DNA from: a virus
Lineage: Duplodnaviria; Caudoviricetes
Direction: 5' to 3' (one strand)
Virus record (IMG/VR): IMGVR_UViG_3300042691_027299
Location: 596-64,595 of that record
DNA length: 64,000 nucleotides
In this document: positions 710 through 63,441 of the stretch, piece by piece
Numbering within the stretch: the first letter of the stretch is position 1
How the letters are laid out: each line of letters begins with the position of its first letter
The notes under the pieces: generated by a model
What the model was told of the DNA's origin: nothing
Database searches by the model: none
Seen by the model: the letters and a program-made list of their open reading frames with translations, nothing else
Program-made: the position numbers and the translations under genes

Positions 710-819
710 GGCACACATAGGACGACCGTCGCCCCTGCCGCGTACCATCACCCTCTAGCGCTTGTAATCCGGGCAGCCTCGACGACCCTGCGGACATAGA
801 TTTCCGCCCCCATCCAGAA

Positions 820-1202: not shown

Positions 1203-1212
1203 CCGAGGCCCC

Positions 1213-6243: not shown

Positions 6244-6675
6244 ATGACAGCCATTTCCGACACAACCGAAAACGCTATTCTCAATCTGGTGTTCCGGGCC
6301 ACCGCTTGGGCCAACTACGCAGACAACGCGGCAACGTCGCCGGAAACGAATATCGTCGTTGCGCTTGCGACTGCTGATTACACCGACAGCGGCACGCTTT
6401 CGTCGAACGAGACGACTTATACGTCATACGCTCGCGTGAACGTCGCGCGATCGACCGGATGGAACGCGGCTTCTGGCGGGTCGACTTCGCCAGCAGCAAC
6501 AATTTCATTCCCGGCGGGGACCGGCGGATCTGGCACGGTCACACATTTCGCAACCGGCAAGAGCGGAGGCGGCGCAGCGGCGGTGCTTTGGTACGGAACT
6601 GTGAGTCCCAACATAGTCACTGGCAACGGGGTGACTCCGCAGCTCTCCACGGCCACGACCATCACCTTGGCTTGA
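6244..6675 (+). CDS. Putative virion appendage/fibre-associated protein
   Basis: Thr/Gly/Ser-rich beta protein; near-identical to 63007-63438. Confidence 0.7.
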   Translation: MTAISDTTENAILNLVFRATAWANYADNAATSPETNIVVALATADYTDSGTLSSNETTYTSYARVNVARSTGWNAASGGSTSPAATISFPAGTGGSGTVTHFATGKSGGGAAAVLWYGTVSPNIVTGNGVTPQLSTATTITLA

Positions 6676-6679
6676 CGAC

Positions 6680-7138
6680 ATGTCGATTGCAACCGCTGTT
6701 CGTCGCTGTCTCGTGGATCTCGATGTGCCGGGTATTCGCGCGCTGTGGGCGAAGATCTCGCCGCATCTGCCGCAACCCAAGTCTGATGCCGATACGCTGG
6801 CAGCACTTCACGCCGCGCGCACGGCCTCGGAAAGCGTGCCGCTGCGGATGCGGGCCTATTCGCATCGGTGGCTGACCGAGCGGCAATTGCCATCACAATT
6901 GCCTGACCGCTTGAAACCAAGCGCGGAGCAGATTTGCCCGCGCGTGGCCATGTCGGTTGGCATTGCGGTTGGCTCGCCCATCCCGGTCGTGCGCGATGGC
7001 ATTCGGGGTGCCATGGAGTACGCGGTTCATGACTGCTATGCCAATGGCGATACTGACCCGGCGATCGTCAAGCCGCAAATGATGGAAGCGCGCAGACGGG
7101 AACGCAAGGCGCTCGGCATCATCGAGCGAGGAGAATAA
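6680..7138 (+). CDS. Conserved phage hypothetical protein
   Basis: Near-identical to 63442-63900. Confidence 0.8.
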   Translation: MSIATAVRRCLVDLDVPGIRALWAKISPHLPQPKSDADTLAALHAARTASESVPLRMRAYSHRWLTERQLPSQLPDRLKPSAEQICPRVAMSVGIAVGSPIPVVRDGIRGAMEYAVHDCYANGDTDPAIVKPQMMEARRRERKALGIIERGE

Positions 7139-7588
7139 ATGCCGGCAAATACAGACCCCATTTATACCAGGACGCCAGACATCAGCATTGCAGGCTCGGT
7201 GGTTGGCTCAAGCGCCAACACCGCAACGGATGGAACGGGCGCCAACAGCTATCTCGTTTATACGGCGGACGCGACCAACGGCAGCTATGTGCGGTCGATT
7301 ATCTTCAAGCCGATTAGCACAATCGCAGCCACGGTGGCGCGGGTGTTCTGGTGCTCGAATACGGGCTCATTCACGCCCGGCACGACCAACACAGCGGCCA
7401 ACTCTACAATCCTCGCTGAAATCACCATTGCAGCTTGGACGGCGAGCAACACCACGGCCAGCCCGCAATATGAACTGCAAATCAACATGGGCATGCCGGC
7501 AAGCACCAAGCTATTCGTCACGTTCGGCACGTCCACGGGCGCCGGCACTACGGGATTTAATCCGTTGGTCATTGCAGGGAAATACTGA
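7139..7588 (+). CDS. Putative structural beta-rich protein
   Basis: In operon; homolog begins at 63901. Confidence 0.7.
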   Translation: MPANTDPIYTRTPDISIAGSVVGSSANTATDGTGANSYLVYTADATNGSYVRSIIFKPISTIAATVARVFWCSNTGSFTPGTTNTAANSTILAEITIAAWTASNTTASPQYELQINMGMPASTKLFVTFGTSTGAGTTGFNPLVIAGKY

Positions 7589-7803
7589 TGGCATGGGTCT
7601 TCTGGCGGATACGCTTCAACGGCGGCGACACGTTCGGCTATCAAGTCATGAACGAAAACCTTGAGCCTCGGACGCCGTGCGCGATTTTCAAAGACGACGG
7701 CACGCCAGATCCGAACTGCGGCGACTACACGACCATAGATTCCGGCACCGAGCCTCACGTGGGCGTGACGCCGCCAGCATGGGCGCCCGACCTCGATGCT
7801 TGA
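7588..7803 (+). CDS. Small hypothetical protein
   Basis: TGATG coupling to the upstream gene; overlaps the start of the next gene. Confidence 0.6.
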   Translation: MAWVFWRIRFNGGDTFGYQVMNENLEPRTPCAIFKDDGTPDPNCGDYTTIDSGTEPHVGVTPPAWAPDLDA

Positions 7804-8707
7804 CGGTTTTGGACTGCCGAAATCACAGCCGTTTTCGTGGGAGGTATTCTACCCACCGAACAGCGCCACCACTACGGAAGGTTGGCGCTCGTGGAAAAAG
7901 CCGCGCGGCGCAAGCATGGTTTATATTATGATGATTGCGGCTGGTGGCGGCGGTGGTGGTGGTGTGTCTGGCAACGGCACCACGGGCGCTGGTGGCGGTG
8001 GCTCGGGTGGCATGTCGCGCTGGTTTGGTCCTTCGTTTGCGTTGCCCGACATGCTGTTCGTGCGCGCAGGCAGCGGCGGCGCGGGTGGTGCGGCGGCAGG
8101 CGCAGGAACAACAGGCACGACAAGCTTTGTGTCCGTGCAACCAAACAATACGGGCGCTAACCTCATTATGTCGCAGGCCGGCGGCGGCGGCGGCGCGTCG
8201 GCGACCACGGCGGGAACGGCAGGCCCAATCGGAAGCTCCGGAAATTTTGCATGGGGCGCGTTAGGCTTGTGGGTTTCAATCCAAGGCCAAGCCGGTGCGG
8301 CGGGTGCAAACGCCAGCAACGGAACAGGAGTTAGCGTCACGTTTGGCGGCTCTGGCATAACTCTATGCGGCGGCGCGGGTGGCGGCAATGGAACGGGCTC
8401 GGGAGGCGCAGTAACGGGAGCCGGCTTGGTGCCGACAATTGCGGGCGCTACCACGACGAACCCCGGCAACCCCGGATTTCAGGCAAACCGACGAATTGAC
8501 TTTGCCGACGTGCGCGCCGGCTTTCCTCCGTTGCTCTTCACGGGCGGCGCGGGCGGCGGTGGCGCTGGTGCTGCGACGGCTGGCCGTGGCGGTGATGGGG
8601 CTTATGGATCGGGCGGCGGTGGCGGCGGCGGCACAAACAACGCGGCAGGCGTTGGTGGTGCTGGGGGCCGTGGTGGTGATGGCCTCATCATTATAGGGGC
8701 GTGGTAA
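7796..8707 (+). CDS. Glycine-rich domain protein (fibre/adhesin-like)
   Basis: W.KP.GA.MV...IAAGGGGG start, GGGG runs, GG.GGDGLIII end. Confidence 0.8.
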   Translation: MLDGFGLPKSQPFSWEVFYPPNSATTTEGWRSWKKPRGASMVYIMMIAAGGGGGGGVSGNGTTGAGGGGSGGMSRWFGPSFALPDMLFVRAGSGGAGGAAAGAGTTGTTSFVSVQPNNTGANLIMSQAGGGGGASATTAGTAGPIGSSGNFAWGALGLWVSIQGQAGAAGANASNGTGVSVTFGGSGITLCGGAGGGNGTGSGGAVTGAGLVPTIAGATTTNPGNPGFQANRRIDFADVRAGFPPLLFTGGAGGGGAGAATAGRGGDGAYGSGGGGGGGTNNAAGVGGAGGRGGDGLIIIGAW

Positions 8708-9072
8708 TGTCTTGGGGATTTTACGATCGCGTCAAGGACACGTCGACAACCACCGGAACGGGCACTGTAACCGTAAGCGGCACTGCGCCCACGGGTTATC
8801 AGACGTTCTCGGCTGTGTATGCGGTCGGGGATCGCGTTCCCTACGTGATCGAGCATCAATCGGCAAACGAATGGGAAACCGGACGCGGCACGTATACGGC
8901 GGCTAACCAGATCGAGCGCACGGAAGTCTGGTCTAGTACGAACTCCAACAACGCAGTGAACTTTTCGGCGGGCACCAAAAACGTTTTCGTGGACGCGATC
9001 TCGTTCTTCCTGAACGACGTGGACACGCACGGAATGAGCTTGGCCCGTTCTAACTTCCAGGCGCTGCCCTAA
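8707..9072 (+). CDS. Fibre-associated protein (DRVK.TSTTTGTG family)
   Basis: DRVKDTSTTTGTG, WETGRGTY and VNFSAGTKNVF motifs. Confidence 0.7.
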   Translation: MSWGFYDRVKDTSTTTGTGTVTVSGTAPTGYQTFSAVYAVGDRVPYVIEHQSANEWETGRGTYTAANQIERTEVWSSTNSNNAVNFSAGTKNVFVDAISFFLNDVDTHGMSLARSNFQALP

Positions 9073-10496
9073 TGGCGCTTGGCCATCGCCCAATCTCATC
9101 GCAGCCGATTGCGGGTCTTGAGAATGCCGCCGCGTCGTCTGTTGGGACGGGCACCGCTTCAGGGTCCGGGTCCGCGAGTGCGGTTGGATTATCCATTGTT
9201 ACGGCGGTTGGCACTGCGGCGGCTTCTGGTGCCGCATCTGCTGTCGGAGCGGCGCTAGGGATTGGTGTTGGCTCTGCGGCTGGATCTGGAACGGCGTCCG
9301 GTGTTGGTGTTGCCGCTGCGATTTCGGTCGGTTCAGCGTCGGGATCTGGAACGGCTTCCGCCGTTGGTCGGTCCAACGCAGCCGGGGCAGGAACGGCCGC
9401 TGGCACAGGCACGGCATCCGGTGTTGGTGCGTCGACTGCACGCTCTGACGGATCGGCCTCGGGCGCTGGCGCTGCGTCGGGCACGGGCGCCTCGACTGCG
9501 CGTGCTGACGGCTCCGCAAACGGTACGGGCACGGCCTCCGCTGTTGGCGCAGCCGCCACCTTAGCGGCCGGATCGGCCGCAGGATCGGGCACCGCTTCTG
9601 GTGTTGGTGCCCCGCTTGCGATCGGCGTTGGCAGTGCTGCCGGCACGAGTTCTGCGTCGGGCGTCTCTGTTGCCGGAGCTTCGGCCGGCACAGCGAGCGG
9701 AACCGGTACGGCCTCGGGTGTTGGTCAGGCCAATGCACTCGCGGCGGGTGCGGCCACAGGCACTGGCACTGCATCGGGTGTCGGCAACGCCAACTTCGCA
9801 GGCGTTGGCAGTGCGTCGGCTACAGGTGCCGCGTCTGGCGTTGGTCGTGCGAACTTCACCGGCACGGGCTCTGCGGCAGGAGCGGGAACGGCTTCGGGTG
9901 TTGGTCGGGCGTCAAGCGCTGGCGTGGGCAGTGCGGCCGGAACCGGCGCAGCAACTGCTACGGGTGCAGCGCTCGCCACGGGCACGGGCTCCGCATCGGG
10001 CACAGGCGCAGCCTCGGGTGTAAGCCTTGCCGGCGGCACTGGCGTTGGCACTGCGGCTGGAACCAGCACGGCCTCGGCCGTTGGGCAATCCACCGCGATT
10101 GCGACAGGACTGGCGCAAGGCTCCGGCTCGGCCGAGGCCACGGGATCTGGATCGAGCAGCCGGCCGCCCAAGGCGGAAACCGGCGGCGCCGTTGTGGGTT
10201 CGGGCCGCTGGCGCCGGGCCGATGATGATACGGTTCACCTGCGGGCACAGGGAACAACCGGCCGGGGCCGAACGCCAGCGGTCTCTATCGAAGTCGGCCC
10301 GCCAAGCGTCGAGCTTGAGGCAGAGTGCGCGGAAGGCCGGGGCGTTACCTCGGATGTTGGTCTTACCCAGATTGTGCCGCTTGGCGTGGTGGCGTCGATC
10401 TCGGCCAAGTCCCGGACGGGTGCCGCCAAGGTGCGCACCGATGACACCATCGAAGTGTTGCGAATCATTGAAATGCTGACAAAGCGGGCAGCATAA
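9072..10496 (+). CDS. Gly/Ala/Ser repeat fibre-like protein
   Basis: About 17 repeats of 20 aa (GSAAGSGTASGVGxxxxxxx). Confidence 0.8.
   Translation: MALGHRPISSQPIAGLENAAASSVGTGTASGSGSASAVGLSIVTAVGTAAASGAASAVGAALGIGVGSAAGSGTASGVGVAAAISVGSASGSGTASAVGRSNAAGAGTAAGTGTASGVGASTARSDGSASGAGAASGTGASTARADGSANGTGTASAVGAAATLAAGSAAGSGTASGVGAPLAIGVGSAAGTSSASGVSVAGASAGTASGTGTASGVGQANALAAGAATGTGTASGVGNANFAGVGSASATGAASGVGRANFTGTGSAAGAGTASGVGRASSAGVGSAAGTGAATATGAALATGTGSASGTGAASGVSLAGGTGVGTAAGTSTASAVGQSTAIATGLAQGSGSAEATGSGSSSRPPKAETGGAVVGSGRWRRADDDTVHLRAQGTTGRGRTPAVSIEVGPPSVELEAECAEGRGVTSDVGLTQIVPLGVVASISAKSRTGAAKVRTDDTIEVLRIIEMLTKRAA
9150..10150 (+). repeat. Degenerate 60-bp coding tandem repeat (~17 units)
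   Basis: 20-aa periodicity read from the translation. Confidence 0.8.
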
Positions 10497-17710: not shown

Positions 17711-18292
17711 CTACGATTTCCTGCGCCGCTTAGGCCACGGCCTGCCACTGGAACCCCAACGCCGCCTGCACATCTCGCGGCTCATGCCCGCATGCTTCGC
17801 GGCAATTCTATCAGTCATGTAATCGCGCGAAAACCAAGCCGCGCGCCCGCGCTCTAGCTGTTCCTCGGAAAATTCAACCCGAGGCCGCCCCGGCGGAATG
17901 ATGCCAGCCGGGAGCCGCCGCCCGCCGCCGCGCAATCCCCTGATCGCATCCTCTAACATCGCCTCGCGCTGGCGCTTGTTATCGCTGCGCCGTCCTGTGT
18001 GGACTTCCACGATCACCGCGCCGCGCTCGATCAGCTCCGACATGGCAGACGCGACCTGCGTTGTCGGGCTCATGCTGTCCTTGTGGCGAGACGCCGGCAG
18101 CATCACCAAAGCAATCAACCAGATCGTATCGCCGCCGCGCGTAATCTTCACGACGTCGCGCCACGTCGGGCAGTCATCGCCGACGTGGATGATATTTGAG
18201 GCCCCGGCCGCCCGCAGGCGCCGTGATTGCTCCGACCGCTTCATGCGCTCGGATGCGAAGGTTAGGCCCATTTTTGACTTATCCACGATCAT
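17711..18292 (-). CDS. Degenerate serine recombinase (resolvase/invertase-like) with C-terminal HTH
   Basis: GLTFAS..Q...LRAAGA, RGGDTIWL, ELIERGAVIV and GRP + HTH; canonical YARVS eroded. Confidence 0.6.
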   Translation of the reverse strand: MIVDKSKMGLTFASERMKRSEQSRRLRAAGASNIIHVGDDCPTWRDVVKITRGGDTIWLIALVMLPASRHKDSMSPTTQVASAMSELIERGAVIVEVHTGRRSDNKRQREAMLEDAIRGLRGGGRRLPAGIIPPGRPRVEFSEEQLERGRAAWFSRDYMTDRIAAKHAGMSREMCRRRWGSSGRPWPKRRRKS

Positions 18293-18315
18293 TTGCGTAA
18301 AGGGTACGAAATCGC

Positions 18316-18344
18316 TTGCATTGCGTCAACGGTTAATTTATGTT
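18316..18344 (+). promoter_or_regulatory. Sigma70-like promoter driving the cassette array
   Basis: TTGCAT-N17-TATGTT, divergent from the resolvase-like gene. Confidence 0.6.
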
Positions 18345-18392
18345 TCTCCACATACCGGCGCCTCGCGGGACATCAGGGGCGGAGCAACGACC

Positions 18393-18596
18393 ATGACGAA
18401 CCATCCGAACCGTAGCGGCACGTTTGAGCTTTCATTCTGGGGCCTCGTGCCGGTCAAGTATCGCCGCAAGCACAAGACAATCGAGGCGGCAAAGGCTGAG
18501 GCAGAGCGCGTTTTAGCCAAACTGCCGAACCGTGGCGCGCATCCTGCCGTTATCTATCAGGACGGCGCTCGCCAGCCCGTCGCGTCGGTTTTCTGA
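18393..18596 (+). CDS. Small protein, MTNHPNRS N-terminus
   Basis: GGAG RBS; leader and N-terminus shared with 19346-19546. Confidence 0.65.
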   Translation: MTNHPNRSGTFELSFWGLVPVKYRRKHKTIEAAKAEAERVLAKLPNRGAHPAVIYQDGARQPVASVF

Positions 18597-18619
18597 ATCA
18601 ACAGGAAAGGCCGCTTGCA

Positions 18620-18970
18620 ATGGGACGAGAAGCTGACGAGATGTGGGCCGCTGCAATAGGGATTGCCAAGTCGTTTACTAGATCACCCGAGATGCAAGCC
18701 TTCTACCGGGAGCAGGGCCGCAAACGATCTGAGGCAATTCAGCGCGAGATCGCGGCACAGAAGGCAGCTCGCGAAGCGCGGGAGACCGAGCGCCAGCGCA
18801 GTCGATCCTATGACGTATGGGCACTAAACGGCGGGGCTGATGAATGCACGCAGTTCGGCATCATGGACGGATGCAAGCCTAACTGTCCGGTGTTTGAGCG
18901 CGGAGAGTGCCCGATGCAAGAGGAGAACGAGGCTATATTTGCAGAGCCCGCGCACGGATCAACCCTGTAA
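18620..18970 (+). CDS. Cassette hypothetical protein (Cys cluster)
   Basis: Lies between two motif copies. Confidence 0.65.
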   Translation: MGREADEMWAAAIGIAKSFTRSPEMQAFYREQGRKRSEAIQREIAAQKAAREARETERQRSRSYDVWALNGGADECTQFGIMDGCKPNCPVFERGECPMQEENEAIFAEPAHGSTL

Positions 18971-18984
18971 CGGAAAGGCCACAA

Positions 18985-19251
18985 ATGAGCGACTTATCAA
19001 ATGATGCCTATATTGTTCGCGTTGCTATCATCGAAGAGGCCGCGTCTATCCGCGCTGCTCTCACGGCGCCGCATGTCATCTACAAGCCGGCGCTATATCC
19101 AGACGGCACAAAATGGTGCGCGTTGTTCGGGGATGATTTGATGAGCGGCGTCGCAGGGTTTGGCGACACGCCTGCCGAAGCAATGGCAGACTTCGACAAA
19201 GCATGGACTGCCGCTCGGACACCCGCCGCAACTCTGCGCGCGAAACTGTAA
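18985..19251 (+). CDS. Cassette hypothetical protein (HicB-N-like GDTP.EA motif)
   Basis: WCALFG...GVAGFGDTPAEAM..F. Confidence 0.6.
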   Translation: MSDLSNDAYIVRVAIIEEAASIRAALTAPHVIYKPALYPDGTKWCALFGDDLMSGVAGFGDTPAEAMADFDKAWTAARTPAATLRAKL

Positions 19252-19270
19252 AGCGAAGGCCGGCCTCGCG

Positions 19271-19299
19271 TTCAACATTCGCGCAGGACGGGTTATAAT
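19271..19299 (+). promoter_or_regulatory. Internal sigma70-like promoter
   Basis: TTCAAC-N17-TATAAT. Confidence 0.6.
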
Positions 19300-19345
19300 A
19301 GGAATATCGGCGCCTCGCGGTTCAATCAGGGGCAGGAGAAGTGAA

Positions 19346-19546
19346 ATGGTTACGCATCCGAACAGGTCACGAAAGACGATCAGCGTGAAGCTGACAGAGG
19401 ATGAGTTGAGTTGGCTTATCTATGCTCAAGGTATGATGCAGGAAGATTTGACAGAAGGCGACGACCAGCCCGGCGCAACGCCTGAGATCGGCAAGAAACT
19501 TGTCAACGCGCGGTCACAGCTTCGCGCTCGTCACCCAAAGCGCTAA
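19346..19546 (+). CDS. Small protein, MVTHPNRS N-terminus (possible RHH-like)
   Basis: AGGAG RBS; RKTISVKLTEDEL. Confidence 0.65.
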   Translation: MVTHPNRSRKTISVKLTEDELSWLIYAQGMMQEDLTEGDDQPGATPEIGKKLVNARSQLRARHPKR

Positions 19547-19565
19547 CCACAGGAAAGGCCCGGCG

Positions 19566-19832
19566 ATGAAACAATGGCTCCCAGTCGAAACGCTTCCGCC
19601 TCCCGGCGAGCGTCCGGGCAAAGTTTGGGTATTGGTCGAAGGAAGCCAAGAACACAGCGGCTTGCGCTGGCGGCGCCGAATGGCTGGGCTTGCTCGCACT
19701 CATAACGGAGGCTTTGAGTACGCCGATGTCCGGTCCATTGAGGAACAGGATCAGATGGACAAGGGGACGGGGAAGGTGACGCATTGGCTCCCGATCGACT
19801 TGCCGCACTATCCCGACGATTTGGAAAAGTAA
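19566..19832 (+). CDS. Cassette protein (DUF551-like)
   Basis: W.PVET.P N-terminus and VTHWLP C-terminus. Confidence 0.65.
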   Translation: MKQWLPVETLPPPGERPGKVWVLVEGSQEHSGLRWRRRMAGLARTHNGGFEYADVRSIEEQDQMDKGTGKVTHWLPIDLPHYPDDLEK

Positions 19833-19848
19833 AGGAAAGGCCAGGATC

Positions 19849-20079
19849 ATGACGTTACGCATCAAATGGATTTGCGGCATGGAGCCGATGCGCGAAGGCG
19901 AGTATCCGTCAATGTTCGAGGTTGGCAAGAATGGCGTAACCGAGATCACGGCCGAAACGGAAAACTACGGCGATCACGGTATTGGTTGGTTTAACGTGCA
20001 CTTCGGAGAGCATGTGCTGCAACGCTTGCAGATGCGAGCTACATCCGAGGTCCGCTACTTTCAACCCGGCGACCAGTAA
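19849..20079 (+). CDS. Cassette hypothetical protein
   Basis: Lies between motif copies. Confidence 0.65.
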   Translation: MTLRIKWICGMEPMREGEYPSMFEVGKNGVTEITAETENYGDHGIGWFNVHFGEHVLQRLQMRATSEVRYFQPGDQ

Positions 20080-20095
20080 AGGAAAGGCCAGACAG

Positions 20096-20377
20096 ATGAG
20101 CCGAGCCAACAACTACGGATCAAAGTTCTTCGCCGTCGAAACGGAAACAGAGACAGACATGGTGTTTGCTGACCGCGCAGAGTGCCGCGACGGTGTGTTA
20201 ATGCTGCATGGTGGGTTTCGGAAAGAAAACGAAACCGCCTTATCAGGCGCCGAAATCATTCTTGCTGCCTATGCGCCCGGTTGCTGGCGGCGTGTTAGTG
20301 CCGCGTCAGTGATTGACGGTCACGCTGTCGCCATTGACAGCACAAACAAGAAATCAGTTGCGAAGCATTGTAAATGA
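20096..20377 (+). CDS. Cassette hypothetical protein
   Basis: ATG 6 nt after the motif. Confidence 0.65.
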   Translation: MSRANNYGSKFFAVETETETDMVFADRAECRDGVLMLHGGFRKENETALSGAEIILAAYAPGCWRRVSAASVIDGHAVAIDSTNKKSVAKHCK

Positions 20378-20389
20378 AAGGCCGGAGCC

Positions 20390-20626
20390 ATGCCAAAGTT
20401 CAAAGTCACGCGACTTGAGCGAGTTGAGGTGTACGCAACAATTGAGGCGGATGACGCCAATGCAGCCATCTCGTTATTCGACGAGCACTATCCCGGTCTC
20501 ACAAACTTTGCCGGAAACGGCGGCAGCAATAAGTTGATCGGCATCTCCCCATGCGACGAGGTGAACTACGGCGTCGAAAGCGTTGAGGATTATCTTGAGT
20601 CCCAATGCAAAGAGTTGAAGCCGTAA
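20390..20626 (+). CDS. Cassette hypothetical protein
   Basis: Lies between motif copies; MPKFKV...IEADD. Confidence 0.65.
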   Translation: MPKFKVTRLERVEVYATIEADDANAAISLFDEHYPGLTNFAGNGGSNKLIGISPCDEVNYGVESVEDYLESQCKELKP

Positions 20627-20647
20627 AGGAAATGCCGCCACCTACAC

Positions 20648-20673
20648 AGCCCGGCATCAGCGCCGGGCTTTTT
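20648..20673 (+). terminator. Rho-independent terminator closing the cassette array
   Basis: AGCCCGGC-loop-GCCGGGCT followed by a T run. Confidence 0.8.
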
Positions 20674-21013
20674 CATTCGACCTTGAGGACGGATCTTAGA
20701 ACAGGGTGCTTCTCAAGATGGTCCTCGACGTAATCGGCTTCACGCAGCGAGACCTTCCCGTCATGTCGGGAGATGTAAGCCAGATCTCGGGTTGCAACCT
20801 CAAGGCTAGTCGGCGCGCTGGCGTTTGGTTTGAAGGCTGCAAACGCTTCCGTCAGCCCCATGTCTTTGGCGTAGGCCTGAAAGACGGGGTTGTCTCCCCA
20901 ACTGGCAACAATCTGCTGCAAGGCGTTCTCTGATCGCCGATAGATGGTTAGTTCGGAATACGCTGCCGACGCTTGGGCGCGAATAAACTCGGCCTCGATC
21001 TCGGTTGTCGTCA
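20673..21013 (-). CDS. Hypothetical protein next to att
   Basis: ORF converging on the terminator; start uncertain. Confidence 0.5.
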
Positions 21014-21055
21014 TTTTCCGCCTGCTGGGACTCACTGTTGGGGATTTCCGCGATT

Positions 21056-21086
21056 CGTTCATGCCCTGTCCATTCCTGTTCATGCC
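21056..21086. repeat. Putative integrase arm-type sites
   Basis: Three ~10-bp tandem units CGTTCATGCC / TGTCCATTCC / TGTTCATGCC about 55 bp left of the att core. Confidence 0.55.
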
Positions 21087-21139
21087 ACGAGAACGCGGCA
21101 TTTATCCAACAAAATCAACGCACTTAGCCCGTTTTGACT

Positions 21140-21189
21140 GCTGACTCTTAATCAGCGGGTCGAAGGTTCGAGTCCTTCATCACCCACCA
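21140..21189 (+). other. att core: 3' half of tRNA-Lys(CTT), not a complete tRNA
   Basis: GCTGA-CTCTTAA-TCAGC anticodon arm, GGTTCGAGTCC T arm and ATCACCCACCA end; D arm and 5' acceptor strand absent; integrase 0.5 kb away. Confidence 0.92.
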
Positions 21190-21198
21190 ATTTTACTC

Positions 21199-21699
21199 TT
21201 AATTTTCAACGCTTTCTGGCCTTGTTAACTTTTGCCGCTTTTTGCTGTTGGGGGTTTGTGTTGGTCCCGGCTGCATCGGCGCGTGCGTGGGCCGATGACT
21301 CCGAAGCCCCGAATAGTGGAACGTATGCAGGCACAGGATGTGCTCTAGCTGATCGTTCAGGTGAAACCATTCCCCGTGCACCCAGACGTGGCGCAGCGCC
21401 TTTTTGATCATGTCCTCGGCCACCGCACCACCCAACAGCACCCCCAACACAACGACCTGGTAAGGGCAGTGTCCTTGGATCTGTCGAAGCCGAAAGCCGG
21501 GGTTGTTGCTCATGCCGACTTTCACCCGATCACGGCAGGTCATGAAGTAGACTAACGGCTCGTTGTTGTTGCCGATTGGGAATGTCGGCTCGCGCGTGGC
21601 GATCGGTGCCCGCCGCTTAATTGCTTCGATCAATGTCTCGGCCGTGTAGAAGCGGCGCTCCTCATCCCAGATGTCCGGGACGGTGTGATCAATCCTCAT
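21199..21699 (-). CDS. T5orf172/GIY-YIG-like domain protein
   Basis: VYFM...VKVGMS.NP..RL..IQ...E......GEWF. Confidence 0.8.
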   Translation of the reverse strand: MRIDHTVPDIWDEERRFYTAETLIEAIKRRAPIATREPTFPIGNNNEPLVYFMTCRDRVKVGMSNNPGFRLRQIQGHCPYQVVVLGVLLGGAVAEDMIKKALRHVWVHGEWFHLNDQLEHILCLHTFHYSGLRSHRPTHAPMQPGPTQTPNSKKRQKLTRPESVEN

Positions 21700-22702
21700 T
21701 CTTTCTCCGCATCGCGACGACCTTGCCGTCTGTATCCAGCAAGCGCGGCATCTTGCCAAGCGCCGACCTAACTTCCGTGCCGATGACGTGCCGGTACTTC
21801 TCCGTCACCGATACCGAGCTGTGGCCAAGATGGTCCTTGATTACTTCCAGTGCAGCGCCGGACTGGCCGAGCCACGTTGCGAAAGAGTGCCGGATGTCGT
21901 GCCATCGAAAATTGGTGATTTGCGCTCGATCCAACGCGGTCTCAAAATGCCGGCGCCAGTTTGTCGTGTCGAAGACGTGTTCGCGGTCCTTGGGCAAGGA
22001 CGCCAGCAGCAGGATTGCTTCATCGCTGAGTGCAACCGTCCGCTCGTATCCACCCTTCACCCTGACCGTAATAGAGCTAGCCTTGACGTTCTCCCATCGC
22101 AGGTTAAAAGCCTCACGCTTTCGGAGGCCGGTCATGAACATGAACTGGCAGACCTGTCGGATGTGAAGCGGCAGCGCGTCGATCAATCGGGCTGCCTCGG
22201 CAGGATCCAGATGGCGCACGCGGGCGCGCTCTTTAGTCTTCATCGCAGACCAGTCAATCACCTTGACGGGCTGTTCCCATCGCTTTGCTGCAATGCTGTG
22301 GACGCCGTGGAGCGTGGTGACGGTGCGGTTGATAGATATTTCCCCGATGCCCTTGGCTCTCATCGCGGCGACCATAGCCGCGACATGCTTTGCCGACAGA
22401 TCAGCTAGCGGCGTTCGCGCGTCGATAAAGTCGCAACAATATCTTAACCAGCGTTGCACGTTGCGGGCGTCTTTCAGTCGCCGTCCGTGCTCGATCCAGT
22501 ACCGACCGCAGGCGTGATCAAGCGTAAGGACCGGGACCGCTGACGAGGCAGGAAGCTGGCGGATCGCTTGTTCTCTAAGCTGCTTTTCAAACTGTTCCGC
22601 GTCCCGGCGGGTGCGCGCGCCAGTGCTTCGGACAATCCGACGCCCTTTGACGATAATTTCTGTGTACCAATATGGGGAGTTGGTCCGCTTGAAGAGTGAC
22701 AC
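21689..22702 (-). CDS. int: Tyrosine integrase
   Basis: TGLRKRE, HDIRH, LGH and TEKY catalytic residues; N-terminal arm-binding region. Confidence 0.96.
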   Translation of the reverse strand: MSLFKRTNSPYWYTEIIVKGRRIVRSTGARTRRDAEQFEKQLREQAIRQLPASSAVPVLTLDHACGRYWIEHGRRLKDARNVQRWLRYCCDFIDARTPLADLSAKHVAAMVAAMRAKGIGEISINRTVTTLHGVHSIAAKRWEQPVKVIDWSAMKTKERARVRHLDPAEAARLIDALPLHIRQVCQFMFMTGLRKREAFNLRWENVKASSITVRVKGGYERTVALSDEAILLLASLPKDREHVFDTTNWRRHFETALDRAQITNFRWHDIRHSFATWLGQSGAALEVIKDHLGHSSVSVTEKYRHVIGTEVRSALGKMPRLLDTDGKVVAMRRKNED

Positions 22703-24476: not shown

Positions 24477-25097
24477 TCACGCCGCCCTCCGATACGCGGT
24501 GTTGAGCGCTGCAATCGTTTCGTCGACTTCCTGCAAGAACTCGACAATCGCGCCGCTCAACCCGGCAATGGTTTCCTCGTCACGCTCCAGGCGCTTCACG
24601 AACAGCCGAAGGTCTTCCGGCATGCGCGGATCGTAGGAGACGAAATCGCACCAGGAACGATCAGTGCAGGCCATTTGCCACTGCATTTGCAGGGCGTACT
24701 TGCCCGGCACCGACTTGCCTAGAAGCGTCTCGATGTGCGTTGCCGTGTTCGGGCACTTAATCTCGACAAGACCATTCGTGCCGATCAAGCCGTCCGGGCT
24801 GGCGCCGCTCATGGCAATGGTCGGGTGCTGCGCAAACGCTATCTGCTCAACGTCGGTGTTTTGATAAAAGCAGTATGCCTCGCGAGCTTCGGCCTCAGTG
24901 GCAACGCCCCATTCCATCGCGGCGTTCGTGTAGCTCTCACCAAGGATGCCGGTCAGGCGTTCGGCCACCAGTTGCGCGCGATAGTTGGCGCGGCTGGCGC
25001 TCCATCCCGTTTTTGTTTTGGCAACCACATCTGCAACGCGCGAGGCCGTCACCTTGCCGAGCCTGATTGCCTTCCATTCGTCCGAACCTTGTTCCAT
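24477..25097 (-). CDS. YqaJ/lambda-exonuclease family protein
   Basis: QGSDEW...RLGKVTAS, ASPDGL, EIKCP and QMQWQM motifs. Confidence 0.93.
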   Translation of the reverse strand: MEQGSDEWKAIRLGKVTASRVADVVAKTKTGWSASRANYRAQLVAERLTGILGESYTNAAMEWGVATEAEAREAYCFYQNTDVEQIAFAQHPTIAMSGASPDGLIGTNGLVEIKCPNTATHIETLLGKSVPGKYALQMQWQMACTDRSWCDFVSYDPRMPEDLRLFVKRLERDEETIAGLSGAIVEFLQEVDETIAALNTAYRRAA

Positions 25098-25098
25098 G

Positions 25099-25986
25099 TC
25101 AGCCCGCCTTTTTCTTGAGGGCTGCAATGGCGCGCTCGTAGTCGGATGCTTTTAGGTCGGGCAGCTTCTCAATCTTGAAGTAGCCGCAAAACTTCGGCAA
25201 ATCCGCTTCCGTTGCCTCGATCAGATCGCGCAACGTTGACTCTTGTTCTTCGGTAATGAATTGAGACGGGGCCGCGCCGTCCGTGTCTTTGTCGTCATGG
25301 CCAACCAGATTGAGCAGGGCGAACGCGGCGTAGCGCTTGCCGTAGGACACAGACGAACCCCACCCCTGCACGTTGTTCTTGGCCCCACCCGTATCAATCG
25401 GCAGTGCCAGTTGCGAGCGCTCGGAATGCCCGTCAACGTGGGTGAGAACTGCCGTCACGTTCACGCGATCCGCTGCGGTTTGCGCGGTTTCGAACGTCAG
25501 CACCAATTCCTCGGAGGCCAACACCGGCTCGATTTGCGCGCAAACTTCCTCCCACTTTGCATAAGTCGATTGCTTAACCTTGCCGACCTTTGCGCCGCGA
25601 TCGTCTTTGACGTTGCCCTCGATAACGCCCGTCTTGATGAGCTTGGGCATTTTGGATTTGGCACGCATCAGCGCCGATACGAATGATGACTTTGCCGCTC
25701 GCGCCGTGGCGCGCTCATACATGGCATACATGCGCTCAACGCGCTCGACATCAGCGCCAGACGCAATCGCGCGGTCAATCATGCTGATGAGTGCGGCGGA
25801 TTCCGAGCTTGCCGCAGACGGCAGGCGCACTAGCCGATCAGCGCCGCGAGATACCTCGCCAGATCCGCCATTCCCTTGCCGATCAACAACCCGATCACCA
25901 GTGTCACCGCTACGATCAGCAGGTGCGCTATCGCTCCCGCTATGCCCCGCAGCCAAATCAGCCTGTCCATCCGTTGCCCTGTCCAT
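25099..25986 (-). CDS. ERF-family single-strand annealing protein
   Basis: YAKWE, HVDGH, GSSVSYGKRY...D.D motifs. Confidence 0.9.
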   Translation of the reverse strand: MDRATDGQADLAAGHSGSDSAPADRSGDTGDRVVDRQGNGGSGEVSRGADRLVRLPSAASSESAALISMIDRAIASGADVERVERMYAMYERATARAAKSSFVSALMRAKSKMPKLIKTGVIEGNVKDDRGAKVGKVKQSTYAKWEEVCAQIEPVLASEELVLTFETAQTAADRVNVTAVLTHVDGHSERSQLALPIDTGGAKNNVQGWGSSVSYGKRYAAFALLNLVGHDDKDTDGAAPSQFITEEQESTLRDLIEATEADLPKFCGYFKIEKLPDLKASDYERAIAALKKKAG

Positions 25987-26348
25987 TAGCTCGCGCTCCC
26001 TATGAGGTATCCGCAGACAAAAACGGCCGACAAAAGCACGGCCCATGCAAACGCAACATCCACTTCCATCACCCCTCGCACTCGATGCGATGACATGCCC
26101 AATCATCCGGTGATCTGTTTTGATCGAGGGCGAGCTTGCGTATTGCCTGCCGCGCCTCGCACTCCGTTTGGTAATCTGCGGGCTCTGGGAAGCCGCTTGT
26201 CAGGTCGATGATGATCCAGACCACCCGCATGATCGGCCTCCTGAAAAAGTCGGCGGGGGCGGTCCCCGTCCGCTGTAAGCAGCCGCCCCCGCCTGACCGA
26301 CGCTGCCCTCAAGGCAACCCCCGATGCCCCGCGTCGGTGTTCGAATGG

Positions 26349-31381: not shown

Positions 31382-31684
31382 ATGACACGAGACCAAGCCC
31401 TGATCATCGCCAAGCGCATCATGCGCCGCATCGAGGACGATCAAGCCATCCACATGGACAGCCTCGCCGATGAGCTGGTGATGGCGATGGCCGTGCAAAA
31501 ACCGGCCATTGTGCAATCGTTTGTGGGGGCTAACAAGGTGCCGCTGCCAACGATGGCTTGGGGAACGATGACGGATGAGCCCGCCGAATCCAAAGATTTG
31601 CTGAGAGCCAAGCAAGAGAAATTCGATCAATGGGCCGCCGCAGTCCAGGCTGCACGGCAACGCGGCTATCTCATGGGGGTTTGA
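31382..31684 (+). CDS. Hypothetical protein
   Basis: GGAGG RBS; coupled to the NusG paralog. Confidence 0.6.
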   Translation: MTRDQALIIAKRIMRRIEDDQAIHMDSLADELVMAMAVQKPAIVQSFVGANKVPLPTMAWGTMTDEPAESKDLLRAKQEKFDQWAAAVQAARQRGYLMGV

Positions 31685-32184
31685 TGACCACAACCTGGCG
31701 CATCCTCATGGTGGCCCCGCAACGCGAACTCCGCGTCGCCGCTGAAATCAAGCGCGGGCTGGGCTTGTTCACCATGGTCCCGACGCAACGACATAAGGTG
31801 CGCACCCGTGGCCGTGGCAATCAGGTCATCATCACCGATCGCAGCCTGCCCATCATGCCGAGATACGTTTTTGTCGGTTCGAACTTTGGAGACATCCCGT
31901 ACCGCGACGTGATGGAAATCCAGCATGTGCAGTCCGTCGTGCAATTCGGGGGCGAGCCTGCCCGCCTGACTGGCGCCGACGTGCATGCCATCCGCCGCAT
32001 GGCCGCCGATTTTGTCACGGGCTGGAAGGCGGGCGATAAGGGCATCATCACGGACGGCCCCTTCAGGTCGATCGAGGCGTTGATCGCCCACGTCAAGACC
32101 GAGACGATGAGCGTGCGCGTGCCCATGTTTGGGTCGGAACGTGTCGTGGAAATCCGAGCCGACCAAATCGAAAAGGTTGCCTGA
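31684..32184 (+). CDS. NusG-family antitermination factor paralog (NGN+KOW)
   Basis: PIMPRYVFV, GDKGIITDGPF (KOW) and MFGSERVV motifs. Confidence 0.9.
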   Translation: MTTTWRILMVAPQRELRVAAEIKRGLGLFTMVPTQRHKVRTRGRGNQVIITDRSLPIMPRYVFVGSNFGDIPYRDVMEIQHVQSVVQFGGEPARLTGADVHAIRRMAADFVTGWKAGDKGIITDGPFRSIEALIAHVKTETMSVRVPMFGSERVVEIRADQIEKVA

Positions 32185-33879: not shown

Positions 33880-33994
33880 AAATTAAGAGACGAGCGATCC
33901 CCCCGGCCTGCACCCCATAGCCGGCAGAAGTCAGTTTCGGGACGCCCTCGGTCGCAATGGCGACCACCCCATCCAAAAATACGCCCGGTCATCC

Positions 33995-34183
33995 ATGACA
34001 CCCCAAGCGGTCATCGGCCTTATCGCCGATTGGACTAAGCGCATCGGCTTACTCGCTCTTGCTATTCTCGCCGCCCTGATGGCCCTTAAGGCTCTCGGGG
34101 CTCCTATCGCTTGGCGAACCCCCAACCTTGATCAGAACGCCGGCATTGCCATGGCCGCGCTTGCTTACGTGCTCTCTCGATGA
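33995..34183 (+). CDS. Small two-TM membrane protein
   Basis: Near-identical to 820-1020. Confidence 0.75.
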   Translation: MTPQAVIGLIADWTKRIGLLALAILAALMALKALGAPIAWRTPNLDQNAGIAMAALAYVLSR

Positions 34184-34347
34184 CCGAAACCGAGATTGAT
34201 GACGTTGACTTGTTGTTCCTCGACCTTGCGGAAATCTTCATTGCGTTTGGCATCTCGTCCAGCCAAGCGCTTGAACTCATTAAAGAACGTTACCCGGTGA
34301 TCCACATTCAGCTTCTGTCCGAGTCAGACCCCGAAACCTTGCACTGA
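34180..34347 (+). CDS. Small acidic hypothetical protein (not in the ORF track)
   Basis: MTETEIDDVDLLFLDLAEIFIAFG...; homolog of 1017-1202. Confidence 0.75.
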   Translation: MTETEIDDVDLLFLDLAEIFIAFGISSSQALELIKERYPVIHIQLLSESDPETLH

Positions 34348-34358
34348 CGAGGCCCCCG

Positions 34359-63438: not shown

Positions 63439-63441
63439 CGC

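What the first reader, a model, noticed from the sequence alone, without database searches (positions are those of the whole stretch)
18316..20673. Candidate novel gene-cassette array: small ORFs each bounded by TAA(A)GGAAAGGCC
Seen: eight copies of the motif (18604, 18972, 19253, 19552, 19834, 20081, 20375, 20628) delimit seven 250-370-bp units, each holding exactly one unrelated ORF, between a promoter and a terminator. The motif contains an RBS-like core. However, it also includes the upstream stop codon and an invariant GCC, and two copies (19253, 20628) have no start codon after them. There is no attC hairpin or IntI. Inference: an integron-like gene capture and shuffling platform in a prophage, probably carrying anti-defence or host-modulating cargo. 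Candidate enzymes are the adjacent serine-recombinase-like protein or ERF/YqaJ annealing.
Basis: partly seen in the sequence, partly recalled or inferred. Interest (0 to 1): 0.85.

Follow-up and report, generated by a model that had tools for sequence, protein, structure and literature searches.

The report
Conserved junction motif linking phage ORFs
Eight small genes of a temperate phage are joined by a repeated 9-14-base signal just before each start codon; the same signal joins unrelated genes in other phages, so it looks like a lineage-specific translation signal and gene-swap boundary, not an integron.

Summary
GGAAAGGCC occurs 5 times exactly, all on the + strand within 18604-20089 and nowhere else in the 64-kb virus record (0.67 expected). 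Three degenerate copies bring the total to eight. The motif lies 4-7 nt before the ATG of 6 of 8 tightly packed small ORFs and directly after the upstream stop.

It is neither the phage's usual RBS (1 of 63 other crude gene calls) nor common in candidate host-clade genomes (10-25 per genome). The same junction links unrelated small ORFs in six other phage or metagenome sequences. Contigs of relatives keep flanks and junctions but carry other ORFs, and one ORF recurs at 98% identity from motif to motif.

The motif does not travel with cargo (0 of 80 homologue loci). There are no hairpins, and the integrase is not IntI.

Best reading: a start-associated, non-canonical Shine-Dalgarno junction, like the SAS motifs of cluster K mycobacteriophages, that probably also serves as microhomology for module exchange, as PeSLs do.

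The integron-like reading is mostly unsupported. However, a resolvase-family gene lies divergently beside the array start in several loci, which keeps a recombinase role open at about 10%.

The parts
17711..18292 (-). Divergent 193-aa gene: a distant, probably non-catalytic resolvase-family protein with a C-terminal HTH-like tail
   Evidence: No Pfam Resolvase hit. ESM Atlas structural rows align residues 1-119 to Resolvase at TM 0.43-0.49. 137 relatives found. 3 of 72 aligned relatives hit Pfam Resolvase. The family profile hits Gin invertase 3uj3_X at E 2.9e-5. The catalytic-Ser column is Ser in 9 of 72.
18356..18380 (+). Leader copy A (CGGCGCCTCGCGG-N3-ATCAGGGGC), followed by GGAG and the o1 ATG
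   Evidence: The same element occurs in 8 IMG/VR contigs and 7 MAG contigs.
18393..18596 (+). o1, 67 aa, N-terminus MTNHPNRS
   Evidence: GC3 0.70.
18604..18612 (+). Junction motif J1 (ACAGGAAAGGCC type), 7 nt before the o2 ATG
18620..18970 (+). o2, 116 aa, conserved C-terminal domain with four invariant Cys
   Evidence: 12 homologues; alignment A3. The unit 18604-18980 is found at 98% identity in a contig of run X7.
18972..18980 (+). Junction motif J2, 4 nt before the o3 ATG
18985..19251 (+). o3, 88 aa, member of a widespread small phage protein family (alpha-beta3-alpha fold)
   Evidence: 85 homologues; AF2 mean pLDDT 91.8; no PDB match at E<=0.001.
19253..19261 (+). Degenerate junction remnant J3 (GCGAAGGCC) with no start after it, lying in the loop of an imperfect inverted repeat (19238-19284)
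   Evidence: (I4).
19272..19299 (+). Internal sigma-70-like promoter P2
   Evidence: 10 of 12 matches.
19308..19333 (+). Leader copy B
19346..19546 (+). o4, 66 aa, N-terminus MVTHPNRS
   Evidence: weak match to phrog_7471 (E 0.0016).
19552..19560 (+). Junction motif J4 (ACAGGAAAGGCC type)
19566..19832 (+). o5, 88 aa, weak DUF551-like
   Evidence: E 0.064, below cut-off; weak similarity to an ORF of the G001 array (E 0.002).
19834..19842 (+). Junction motif J5 (GTAAAGGAAAGGCC type)
19849..20079 (+). o6, 76 aa, no family
20081..20089 (+). Junction motif J6; shares 17 nt with J5
20096..20377 (+). o7, 93 aa, no family
20375..20383 (+). Junction motif J7 (TGAAAGGCC). The o7 stop TGA replaces GGA, yet GTAAA is kept out of frame
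20390..20626 (+). o8, 78 aa, no family
20628..20636 (+). Degenerate junction remnant J8 (GGAAATGCC), followed by the terminator and not by a gene
20648..20669 (+). Intrinsic terminator ending the array
21140..21178 (.). attP core: the 3' part of a tRNA gene, shared with many bacterial contigs
   Evidence: Partial tRNA match; no whole tRNA gene; depth of about 60-1000 and tRNA-like loose ends in 4 runs.
21689..22702 (-). Tyrosine integrase (phage type, not IntI)
24477..26106 (-). YqaJ exonuclease (24477-25127) and Erf annealing protein (25099-26106): the phage's own recombination system

Best explanation
The locus is a pair of back-to-back small-gene operons at the attP-proximal end of a temperate phage. 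The first runs P1?-leader-o1-o2-o3 and the second P2-leader-o4..o8-terminator.

Six of the eight starts are served by a lineage-specific, asymmetric junction element. It consists of the upstream stop, then (GTAA)A-GGAAAGGCC, then 4-7 nt, then ATG.

Its purine core GGAAAGG is a non-canonical Shine-Dalgarno. It can pair (including one G-U) with the last seven bases of a 16S rRNA ending ...CCUCCUUUCU. The invariant CC that follows cannot pair. The element therefore works as the ribosome-binding and re-initiation signal of a tightly coupled operon (median gap 14 nt). Like the start-associated sequences of cluster K mycobacteriophages, it probably also carries information for a trans-acting factor that sets this gene class apart from the phage's other genes, which use GGAGG-type sites.

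The same 9-27 nt element is shared by all junctions and by related phages. It is therefore also the place where ORF modules are exchanged, most simply by short-homology recombination using the phage's Erf/YqaJ system or host functions.

Shown: the motif's position, its specificity to the array, its conservation across phages with unrelated cargo, and mosaic edges at motifs. Inferred: the translational role, the trans-factor and the recombination mechanism.
For: Position.
- The motif ends 4-7 nt before ATG in 6 of 8 ORFs.
- In 58 junctions that I curated from 7 sequences, 50 have AGGCC and 36 have AAAGGCC. The spacer is 4-7 nt in 53 of 57. Only 1 of 58 has a canonical GGAGG, AGGAG or GAGGT. The median intercistronic gap is 14 nt (the starts were chosen with motif guidance).

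Specificity.
- Other genes of the phage use GGAGG-type sites, and AAGGCC lies upstream of 1 of 63.
- There are 0 exact copies outside the array.
- Five Hyphomicrobiales-type MAGs carry 10, 12, 12, 23 and 25 GAAAGGCC-N3-8-ATG sites, against 10, 8, 3, 6 and 7 for the reversed control.

Pairing and accessibility.
- The 16S gene end in the Pseudolabrys MAG reads ...GGATCACCTCCTTTCTAAGG.
- The junction RNA is unstructured, with z-scores from -0.84 to +1.19.
- The two copies with no gene after them are the two that are degenerate in the purine core.

Conservation with unrelated cargo.
- G001 has 8 of 8 forward GAAAGGCC copies inside 7033-9987 of its 42.8 kb.
- Arrays also occur in G007, G008, L101/L107, L104/L109 and L106.
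- No cross-array blastp hit at E<1e-3 appears among 71 parsed ORFs, apart from the duplicate pair L101/L107.

Exchange at motifs.
- An X7 contig of 990 nt matches only 18604-18980, with 7 differences, and 592 nt of unlike sequence lie beyond 18604.
- X7 record 27 keeps the flanks 17972-18286 and 21022-21178, and in between matches only 19829-19854 and 20628-20658.
- An abundant X2/X5 contig matches only 18315-18353, 19534-19560, 19829-19853 and 20639 onward.

Other support.
- Erf, YqaJ and a NinB-like protein are present.
- The listed properties of SAS motifs match: an asymmetric motif 3-7 bp before starts, in one orientation, in the non-structural region, with conserved positions that cannot pair with 16S, rare in the host, and upstream of different gene families (passages of PMC3203893).
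Against: - There is no expression, ribosome or binding data of any kind.
- The host is unknown. The MAGs used as host proxies were picked because they carry the leader element, not the array. The exact mature 3' end of the 16S rRNA is recalled, not measured.
- The invariant GCC and the GTAA part are not explained by 16S pairing, and no candidate trans-factor was found.
- The recombination role rests on one call over contigs. The matching sides there are short (21-39 nt) and the likeness threshold was 85%. The tool itself warns that such joints often come from other organisms or repeats.
- Mosaic edges at gene borders are expected in phages even without a linker.
- No cargo gene shared between two arrays in a different order was found, so shuffling of one and the same cassette has not been seen.
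- The junction counts are partly circular, because the starts were motif-guided.
Confidence: 0.6

Rival explanations
1. Recombinase-served cassette platform. The junction, or part of it, is the crossover site of the small serine recombinase encoded divergently at the head of the array. ORFs would then be captured and excised as units, as in an integron but with a resolvase/invertase-type enzyme.
For: A resolvase-family gene lies divergently next to the array start in G008 (Pfam Resolvase E 2.9e-42) and L107 (E 2e-36). The match is weaker in L106 (E 1.2e-4, below cut-off) and distant in the window. A true resolvase (51% identical to that of G008) sits the same way at the leader-bearing operon of L091. 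Motif remnants after the last gene of each sub-operon (19253, 20628) resemble a site that belongs to the 3' end of a unit. The remnant at 19253 is followed by GGCC, giving a near-palindrome.
Against: - The junctions are asymmetric direct repeats without the dyad symmetry of resolvase or invertase crossover sites.
- The window's own protein belongs to a family that does not keep the catalytic Ser (9 of 72), and only 3 of 72 members hit Pfam Resolvase. Even so, contigs of close relatives carry other cargo, and a 95%-identical copy of the protein exists elsewhere (P0098).
- G001's divergent gene shows no resolvase similarity.
- The resolvase-family gene also accompanies operons with other junction types (L091, L008). 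It therefore tracks the promoter region and not the motif.
- o3 homologues elsewhere carry no motif (0 of 80).
- The synteny may simply reflect shared descent.
Confidence: 0.1
2. Stoperator-like operator sites. The asymmetric motif would be a DNA site bound by the divergent HTH protein or the prophage repressor, blocking transcription through the array in lysogens. Its place next to start codons would be secondary.
For: Asymmetric repeats in one orientation in short intergenic gaps are what the Pope paper contrasts with SAS, as the 13-bp stoperators of L5 (passage; further details of stoperators are recalled). A DNA-binding protein of resolvase ancestry is encoded next to the array.
Against: The spacing to the start codon is tightly fixed at 4-7 nt. 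The motif supplies the only SD-like sequence for these genes, since 1 of 58 junctions has a canonical SD. The copies with no gene behind them have decayed, whereas a stoperator should not depend on a downstream start. G007 and L104 could not be checked for the protein because their contigs end.
Confidence: 0.1
3. Nothing special. The motif would be an ordinary ribosome-binding site, inherited by descent or produced by local duplication, with no function beyond SD pairing and no role in exchange.
For: The motif contains an SD-like core at the right distance. GAAAGGCC-N3-8-ATG is 1 to 4 times as common as its control in the five MAGs, as expected for an SD-like word.
Against: ORFs in different arrays are unrelated while the junction is kept, up to an identical 19-mer AGGAAAGGCCCGACCGATG in G007 and L106. 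Positions that cannot pair with 16S are invariant. Other genes of the same phage use different, canonical sites. Descent alone would preserve genes better than 20-nt spacers.
Confidence: 0.1

Closest known systems
Start-associated sequences (SAS) of cluster K mycobacteriophages (Pope et al. 2011, PMC3203893; passages read)
   Same: Both are short asymmetric motifs repeated in one orientation. Both lie 3-7 bp before start codons, mostly ATG, and the upstream stop sometimes falls inside the motif. Both hold an SD core followed by conserved C residues that cannot pair with 16S rRNA. Both are confined to non-structural genes, are rare in host genomes, and stand upstream of unrelated gene families. 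Function is unknown in both cases.
   Different: The sequence differs (GGAAAGGCC core against GGGATAGGAGCCC). The phage lineage and the likely host also differ: alphaproteobacterial type against Mycobacterium. Here the copies are packed at every junction of one 2.3-kb array rather than spread over half a genome. No ESAS-like 17-bp inverted repeats were seen. Here there is also evidence that relatives swap the ORFs between copies.
PeSL cassettes of T4-type phages (Arbiol et al. 2010, PMC2839356; abstract and section 16 read)
   Same: Both are repeated regulatory motifs flanking small ORFan genes in a hyperplastic region. In both, differences between relatives are bounded by the motif. The proposed mechanism is also the same: homologous exchange between motif copies, which delivers the incoming ORF with its expression signal.
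   Different: PeSLs are about 100-bp promoter plus stem-loop terminator units, so they are transcriptional signals. Here the element is 9-27 nt and is a translational signal inside a polycistronic operon with only two promoters and one terminator. Circles have been shown for PeSLs and have not been tested here.
Integron gene cassettes (intI, attI, attC)
   Same: Both are arrays of promoterless small ORFs in one orientation downstream of a common promoter, each followed by a repeated element, with a recombinase-family gene divergent from the array head.
   Different: There is no attC-type imperfect hairpin and no IntI (62 bits against a 265-bit cut-off). The repeat is the RBS of the next gene. 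Cargo homologues elsewhere lack the repeat (0 of 80). The neighbouring gene is of serine-recombinase ancestry and is probably inactive in this phage.
Early-gene RBS classes recognised by phage factors (T4 RegB cleaving GGAG sites, RegA repressing early mRNAs); recalled, not checked in a paper here
   Same: The shared idea is that a set of early or accessory genes carries a distinctive ribosome-binding sequence, so that one factor can switch them together.
   Different: No RegA-like or RegB-like gene was identified here, and the link is purely by analogy.

Membership tests
SAS-like start-associated motif (functional class) | Short asymmetric motif, many copies, one orientation | tested here: met
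   5 exact and 3 near copies, all on the + strand; repeat families D1-D3.
SAS-like start-associated motif (functional class) | Lies a few bases (3-7) upstream of start codons, mostly ATG | tested here: met
   4-7 nt before ATG for 6 of 8 ORFs. Of 58 curated junctions, 47 use ATG and 11 use GTG.
SAS-like start-associated motif (functional class) | SD core plus conserved positions that cannot pair with 16S rRNA | tested here: met
   GGAAAGG against the 16S gene end ...CCTCCTTTCT. The following CC was fixed by my anchor pattern. A at position -4 occurs in 56 of 57 junctions and G at position -2 in 51 of 57. The position of the mature rRNA end is recalled.
SAS-like start-associated motif (functional class) | Restricted to non-structural genes and rare in the host genome | tested here: met
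   1 of 63 other gene calls has it. 10-25 sites per candidate host-clade MAG. The true host is unknown.
Cluster K SAS (sequence family) | Matches GGGATAGGAGCCC with at most 2 mismatches, in a cluster K mycobacteriophage | tested here: not met
   The motif is GGAAAGGCC. The blastn search of the phage collection found only short Burkholderia phage hits.
Integron | IntI-type tyrosine integrase | tested here: not met
   TIGR02249 scores 62.2 bits against a cut-off of 265, and NF011946 scores 54.9 against 435.
Integron | attC: imperfect inverted repeats forming a hairpin at each cassette's 3' end | tested here: not met
   No short-range inverted repeats at the junctions. Fold z-scores range from -0.84 to +1.19.
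Integron | The recombination site travels with the cassette | tested here: not met
   0 of 80 loci with o3 homologues have AAGGCC within 30 nt upstream or downstream.
PeSL-type mobile regulatory cassette | Each unit carries a promoter and a stem-loop terminator | tested here: not met
   One promoter-like site and one terminator were found on the + strand within the array.
PeSL-type mobile regulatory cassette | Insertions, deletions or replacements between relatives are bounded by the motif | tested here: inconclusive
   One search shows the o2 unit matched exactly from 18604 to 18980, and relatives matching only junctions and flanks. These are contigs only, with short matching sides, from a single call.
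Serine recombinase (window 17711-18292) | Resolvase N-terminal domain detectable | tested here: inconclusive
   No Pfam hit at E<=1. The family profile hits Gin invertase at E 2.9e-5, but the top PDB rows are de novo TIM barrels. Atlas TM scores are 0.43-0.49.
Serine recombinase (window 17711-18292) | Catalytic serine conserved | tested here: not met
   The column aligned to the RVS serine of the G008, L107 and L091 enzymes is Ser in 9 of 72 family members. The window's protein has Ser there in that alignment but Lys in another.

The most novel reading that the evidence does not exclude
The unit [resolvase-family gene] <-> [promoter] -> [array of small ORFs joined by a stereotyped RBS-containing junction] would be a phage-borne gene-capture platform, analogous to an integron but built on a small serine recombinase. 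The junction would be both the ribosome-binding site and the recombination site. Phages such as this one would carry a degenerate recombinase and rely on relatives or on Erf/YqaJ.
Probability: 0.1. Interest if true: 0.85.

Novelty: new variant of a known kind. Interest (0 to 1): 0.55.

Why it matters
Start-associated sequences have so far been described only in cluster K mycobacteriophages, as far as my searches show, and their function is still open.

A second, unrelated lineage shows the same logic: an SD core followed by conserved C residues that cannot pair, confined to accessory genes, and rare in the host. This suggests a general way for phages to mark a class of genes for separate translational control.

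The array also shows how such a mark can double as a safe landing and swap point for new small genes, which bears on how phage accessory regions turn over so fast.

The system is compact. Eight genes, two promoters and one terminator fit within 2.3 kb, which is small enough for reporter and recombination tests.

Tried and rejected
Searches and tests that led nowhere.
- Single-protein scans of viral contigs for o6, the 193-aa gene and o2 found no relatives.
- blastn of the array against the phage collection gave only 98-nt hits in four Burkholderia phages, inside o3.
- Rfam found nothing for the leader or the junctions. The only rows at E<=1 were a partial tRNA and two chance-level rows.
- RNA folding showed no structure beyond shuffles for either the leader or the junctions.
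- Pfam, PHROGs, PADLOC and NCBIfam gave no significant family for any of the 8 ORFs. The sub-threshold rows were DUF551 for o5, phrog_7471 for o4 and JetD for o6.
- The o3 model gave no PDB match at E<=0.001. The best rows were dsRBD-type domains at E 0.5-2, which is a lead only.

RfaH/ops idea. The gene at 198-677 is NusG/RfaH-like, and I asked whether the conserved leader is its recruitment site. I rejected this as a general link. A NusG domain was found in G000 (a paralogue at window 31693-31995) and in G001. It was not found in G007 (82% complete), in the complete G008 (array) or in the complete G015 (leader). The two paralogues sit before the two late-gene modules.

Host and prophage searches.
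- o2 family: 0 of 401 sampled genomes of the order of G003 have a match.
- Double-junction pattern: 8 of 401 genomes matched, against 2 control hits. Only one locus (L200) has two junction-like sites, and none holds an array.
- Of 71 viral loci found with TAAAGGAAAGGCC-N4-8-ATG, only 2 (L059, L063) hold arrays. The other 69 have at most 2 junction-like sites.
- Of 16 metagenome loci found with the double pattern, 5 (three distinct sequences) are arrays. The rest are tandem repeats or isolated sites, mostly in low-GC contigs.
- No RNA holder was listed for the stretch.

Other limits.
- The o2 alignment found one viral locus (L193). It is a low-GC phage that shares only the Cys-rich domain.
- The supplementary figures and tables of Pope 2011 (SAS lists for three phages) were not seen.
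- Literature searches for the motif string and for similar intergenic motifs found nothing relevant.

Full report
WHAT THE WINDOW IS

The window is nearly all of a 64,595-base virus record with 60% G+C. It encodes a tyrosine integrase (21689-22702, minus strand). Beside it lies a 39-nt stretch (21140-21178) that is the 3' part of a tRNA gene and is shared with many bacterial contigs, so this is an attP core.

On the integrase side lie HNH, NinB-like, YqaJ and Erf genes, followed by replication genes and a late region with terminase, portal or adaptor, major head and tail genes. The finding lies on the other side of attP. It would sit at one end of the prophage, between a block of minus-strand genes ending at 18292 and a 142-aa minus-strand ORF (20673-21101).

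THE OBSERVATION

GGAAAGGCC occurs five times exactly, all on the + strand between 18604 and 20089. It occurs nowhere else on either strand. Shuffles give 0.67 on average, and none of 100 reaches five. The chance of such clustering is about 9e-8.

Three further copies are degenerate (19253, 20375, 20628). An independent repeat finder recovers the junction as a 23-nt family with five members and a 12-nt family with four.

Eight ORFs of 66-116 aa fill 91% of 18393-20626 and have coding-type base composition. Six of them start 4-7 nt after the motif, and the upstream stop lies 0-7 nt before it.

Two junction sub-types exist:
- ACAGGAAAGGCC follows o1 and o4.
- GTAA(A/C)GGAAAGGCC follows the other ORFs. 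After o7 the real stop is a TGA that replaces GGA, yet GTAAA is kept out of frame.

The two copies with no start behind them (19253 and 20628) end the two sub-operons. They are also the two that are degenerate in the purine core.

A promoter-like site (19272-19299) and a second copy of a 25-26-nt leader (18356-18380 and 19308-19333) head o4, just as the first copy heads o1. Both o1 and o4 begin M-x-x-H-P-N-R-S. The terminator at 20648-20669 is confirmed. The consensus scan did not find a promoter near 18316.

IS IT JUST THE RBS?

It is in the RBS position, but it is not the usual RBS. In 63 crude gene calls outside the array, the best upstream matches are GGAGG, AGGAGG, AAGGAGG and similar. 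AAGGCC appears upstream of only one of them, the gene at 198 (my gene caller is rough).

Five Hyphomicrobiales-type MAGs carry 10, 12, 12, 23 and 25 copies of GAAAGGCC-N3-8-ATG in 3.5-6 Mb. The reversed control gives 10, 8, 3, 6 and 7. I chose these MAGs because they hold the same leader element.

The 16S gene of one of these MAGs ends ...GGATCACCTCCTTTCTAAGG. GGAAAGG can therefore pair with the terminal CCUUUCU (one G-U pair), and the following CC cannot. The position of the mature rRNA end is recalled. The junction RNAs are no more structured than shuffles.

THE SAME JUNCTION ELSEWHERE, WITH OTHER GENES

A scan for the leader found 8 IMG/VR contigs. One of them, G001, has the same build: a divergent gene, promoter, leader and an MTNHPHRS gene, followed by 12-13 small ORFs joined by stop-(G)AAAGGCC-N3-7-start. 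All 8 forward GAAAGGCC copies of its 42.8 kb lie in 7033-9987.

A scan for the junction found 71 loci, of which two hold arrays, in G007 and G008. A double-junction scan of metagenome contigs gave 16 loci. Five of these, representing three distinct sequences (L101=L107, L104=L109, L106), are arrays.

Some junctions are identical over 19 nt in different contigs: AGGAAAGGCCCGACCGATG occurs in both G007 and L106. In G007 the similarity also runs into the last codons of the upstream ORFs.

In 58 junctions that I curated from the seven sequences:
- 50 have AGGCC and 36 have AAAGGCC.
- 1 has a canonical SD.
- The spacer to the start is 4-7 nt in 53 of 57.
- The median intercistronic gap is 14 nt.

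These starts were motif-guided, so the counts are partly circular.

The ORFs themselves are unrelated. No blastp hit at E<1e-3 appears between arrays among 71 parsed ORFs, except within the duplicate pair L101/L107. The only weaker link is a DUF551-like pair, o5 and a G001 ORF, at E 0.002.

The junctions are conserved and the genes are not.

RELATIVES IN SEQUENCING RUNS

Fourteen runs hold part of the stretch, and four were laid.
- A 990-nt contig of X7 matches the window only from 18604 to 18980, that is from the first base of J1 to the last base of J2. It has 7 differences. It continues for 592 nt of unlike sequence beyond J1 and for 21 nt beyond J2. The protein search finds the same thing: P0086 is 97% identical and sits on a 990-nt contig.
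- Another X7 contig (2438 nt) matches the flanks 17972-18286 (40 differences) and 21022-21178. In between it matches only 19829-19854 and 20628-20658.
- A more abundant contig in X2 and X5 matches only 18315-18353, 19534-19560, 19829-19853 and from 20639 onward.

I read these as relatives that keep the frame and the junctions but carry other ORFs. The tool warns that joints with short sides at a likeness below 95 can come from other organisms or repeats. I could not see the contig sequences themselves.

DOES THE MOTIF TRAVEL WITH THE CARGO?

It does not. o3 belongs to a widespread family with 85 homologues and 208 relatives in viral contigs, of which the best 80 were kept. None of the 80 loci has AAGGCC within 30 nt before the start or after the stop. 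They use ordinary GGAG-type sites. The AAGGCC words inside those loci are Lys-Ala codons.

The motif is thus a property of the recipient lineage and not of the gene. This is the opposite of an attC site.

RECOMBINASES

The integrase is not IntI.

The divergent 193-aa gene has no Pfam Resolvase hit, yet it is a distant relative of that family:
- Atlas structure rows align residues 1-119 to Resolvase at TM 0.43-0.49.
- It has 137 relatives, and 3 of 72 aligned relatives hit Pfam Resolvase.
- The family profile hits Gin invertase at E 2.9e-5. Three de novo TIM-barrel designs score slightly better, which I take as composition or repeat artefacts.
- The column aligned with the catalytic serine of real resolvases is Ser in only 9 of 72.

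The family is therefore probably a DNA-binding derivative rather than an active recombinase.

Intact small resolvases lie in the same divergent position at the head of the arrays in G008 and L107. A weak one lies there in L106. An intact one also sits at the leader-bearing operon of L091, which has a different junction type. G001's divergent gene shows no such similarity. G007 and L104 cannot be judged because their contigs end.

This recurring synteny is the main reason I keep a recombinase-driven reading alive at about 10%. Several points count against it:
- The junctions lack dyad symmetry.
- The gene tracks the promoter region rather than the motif.
- Relatives of this phage with the degenerate protein still differ in cargo.
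- By analogy with Tn3-type res regions, where resolvase represses divergent promoters (recalled), a regulatory role is a simpler reading.

WHAT IT MOST LIKELY IS

The closest described thing is the start-associated sequence of cluster K mycobacteriophages. This is a 13-bp asymmetric motif lying 3-7 bp before start codons, mostly ATG. It holds an SD core followed by conserved C residues that cannot pair with 16S rRNA. It is confined to non-structural genes, is nearly absent from the host, stands upstream of different gene families, and sometimes overlaps the upstream stop (passages of PMC3203893). Its function was still called untested in 2025 (passages of PMC12699233).

The present motif meets each of these functional criteria, but it differs in sequence and lineage. 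I therefore file it as working like a SAS and not as a member of that sequence family.

For the turnover of ORFs between motif copies, the closest model is the PeSL cassette of T4-type phages. There, repeated regulatory motifs flank ORFans and recombination between them deletes, inserts and circularises genes (abstract and section 16 of PMC2839356). The difference is that the repeat here is a short translational signal rather than a promoter-terminator unit of about 100 bp.

My estimates:
- Junction as a class-specific translation signal: about 0.6.
- Junction also as the preferred exchange point: about 0.35-0.4.
- Dedicated recombinase platform: about 0.1.

Other leader-bearing operons have their own stereotyped junctions: GAACAGGAG(T/C)CCCA in L091, CAACGGAGCCCC in L002 and GGAGACCCCG in L088. 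'SD plus a C run, homogenised within an operon' may therefore be a wider habit of these phages.

CARGO

No function can be assigned. o2 has a conserved C-terminal domain with four invariant cysteines. o3 folds confidently as alpha-beta3-alpha, with only weak dsRBD-like matches. o5 is weakly DUF551-like. Nothing matches defence models.

VERDICT

I class it as a new variant of a known kind (SAS-like), with an open and interesting link to gene exchange and a recurrent resolvase-family neighbour.

Noticed in passing
window 18356-18380 and 19308-19333; L001-L008; L083, L086-L089, L091, L092: A conserved 25-26-nt leader (CGGCGCCTCGCGG-N3/4-ATCAGGGGC, then GGAG and a start codon) lies just downstream of promoters of small-gene operons. 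It occurs in 8 IMG/VR contigs and in 7 MAG contigs, mostly labelled Hyphomicrobiales. The other 6 of the 13 genome hits are chance matches inside coding DNA of GC-rich genomes. There is no Rfam family and no stable fold. Its function is unknown and could be an operator, a pause site or a factor-loading site.
   Followed up: partly
window 18393 and 19346; L080 1688; L087, L088, L089, L091, L007: The first (sometimes second) gene after the leader often begins M-x-N-H-P-N-R-S with synonymous codon variation, and then diverges completely. This looks like a conserved N-terminal peptide tag on otherwise unrelated small proteins.
   Followed up: partly
window 808-2232 vs 33967-35441; 6244-7238 vs 63007-64000; 198-677 vs 31630-32184: The record holds two diverged copies (79-85% nt identity) of parts of a late-gene region, and two NusG/RfaH-like antiterminator paralogues, each ahead of a set of packaging or structural genes (portal at 3937-6234; terminase at 36115, adaptor/portal at 39026). 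It may be a composite of two related elements or a phage with a duplicated module.
   Followed up: partly
window 184-200: The only non-array gene preceded by AAAGGCC-N5-ATG is the NusG/RfaH-like gene at 198-677.
   Followed up: no
L094 5318-5926; L107 1976-2575; L091 1045-1611; L106 9254-9859; window 17711-18292: A small resolvase/invertase-family gene is repeatedly found divergent from the promoter of these small-ORF operons. It is intact in some phages and has lost recognisable catalytic motifs in others (a family of at least 137 representatives).
   Followed up: partly
window 21199-21759 (minus strand): A T5orf172/MUG113-domain ORF lies between attP and the integrase, and its longest reading overlaps the integrase's 3' end by about 70 nt.
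   Followed up: no
window 18620-18970: The o2 family has an invariant pattern of four cysteines in a C-terminal domain of about 40 residues. The same domain occurs fused to unrelated sequence in a low-GC phage contig (L193).
   Followed up: partly
L088 (contig of 64,582 bases labelled as a Saccharibacteria MAG): A leader-bearing, phage-like contig of almost the same length as this record sits in a MAG assigned to Saccharibacteria. This is probably a binning artefact.
   Followed up: no
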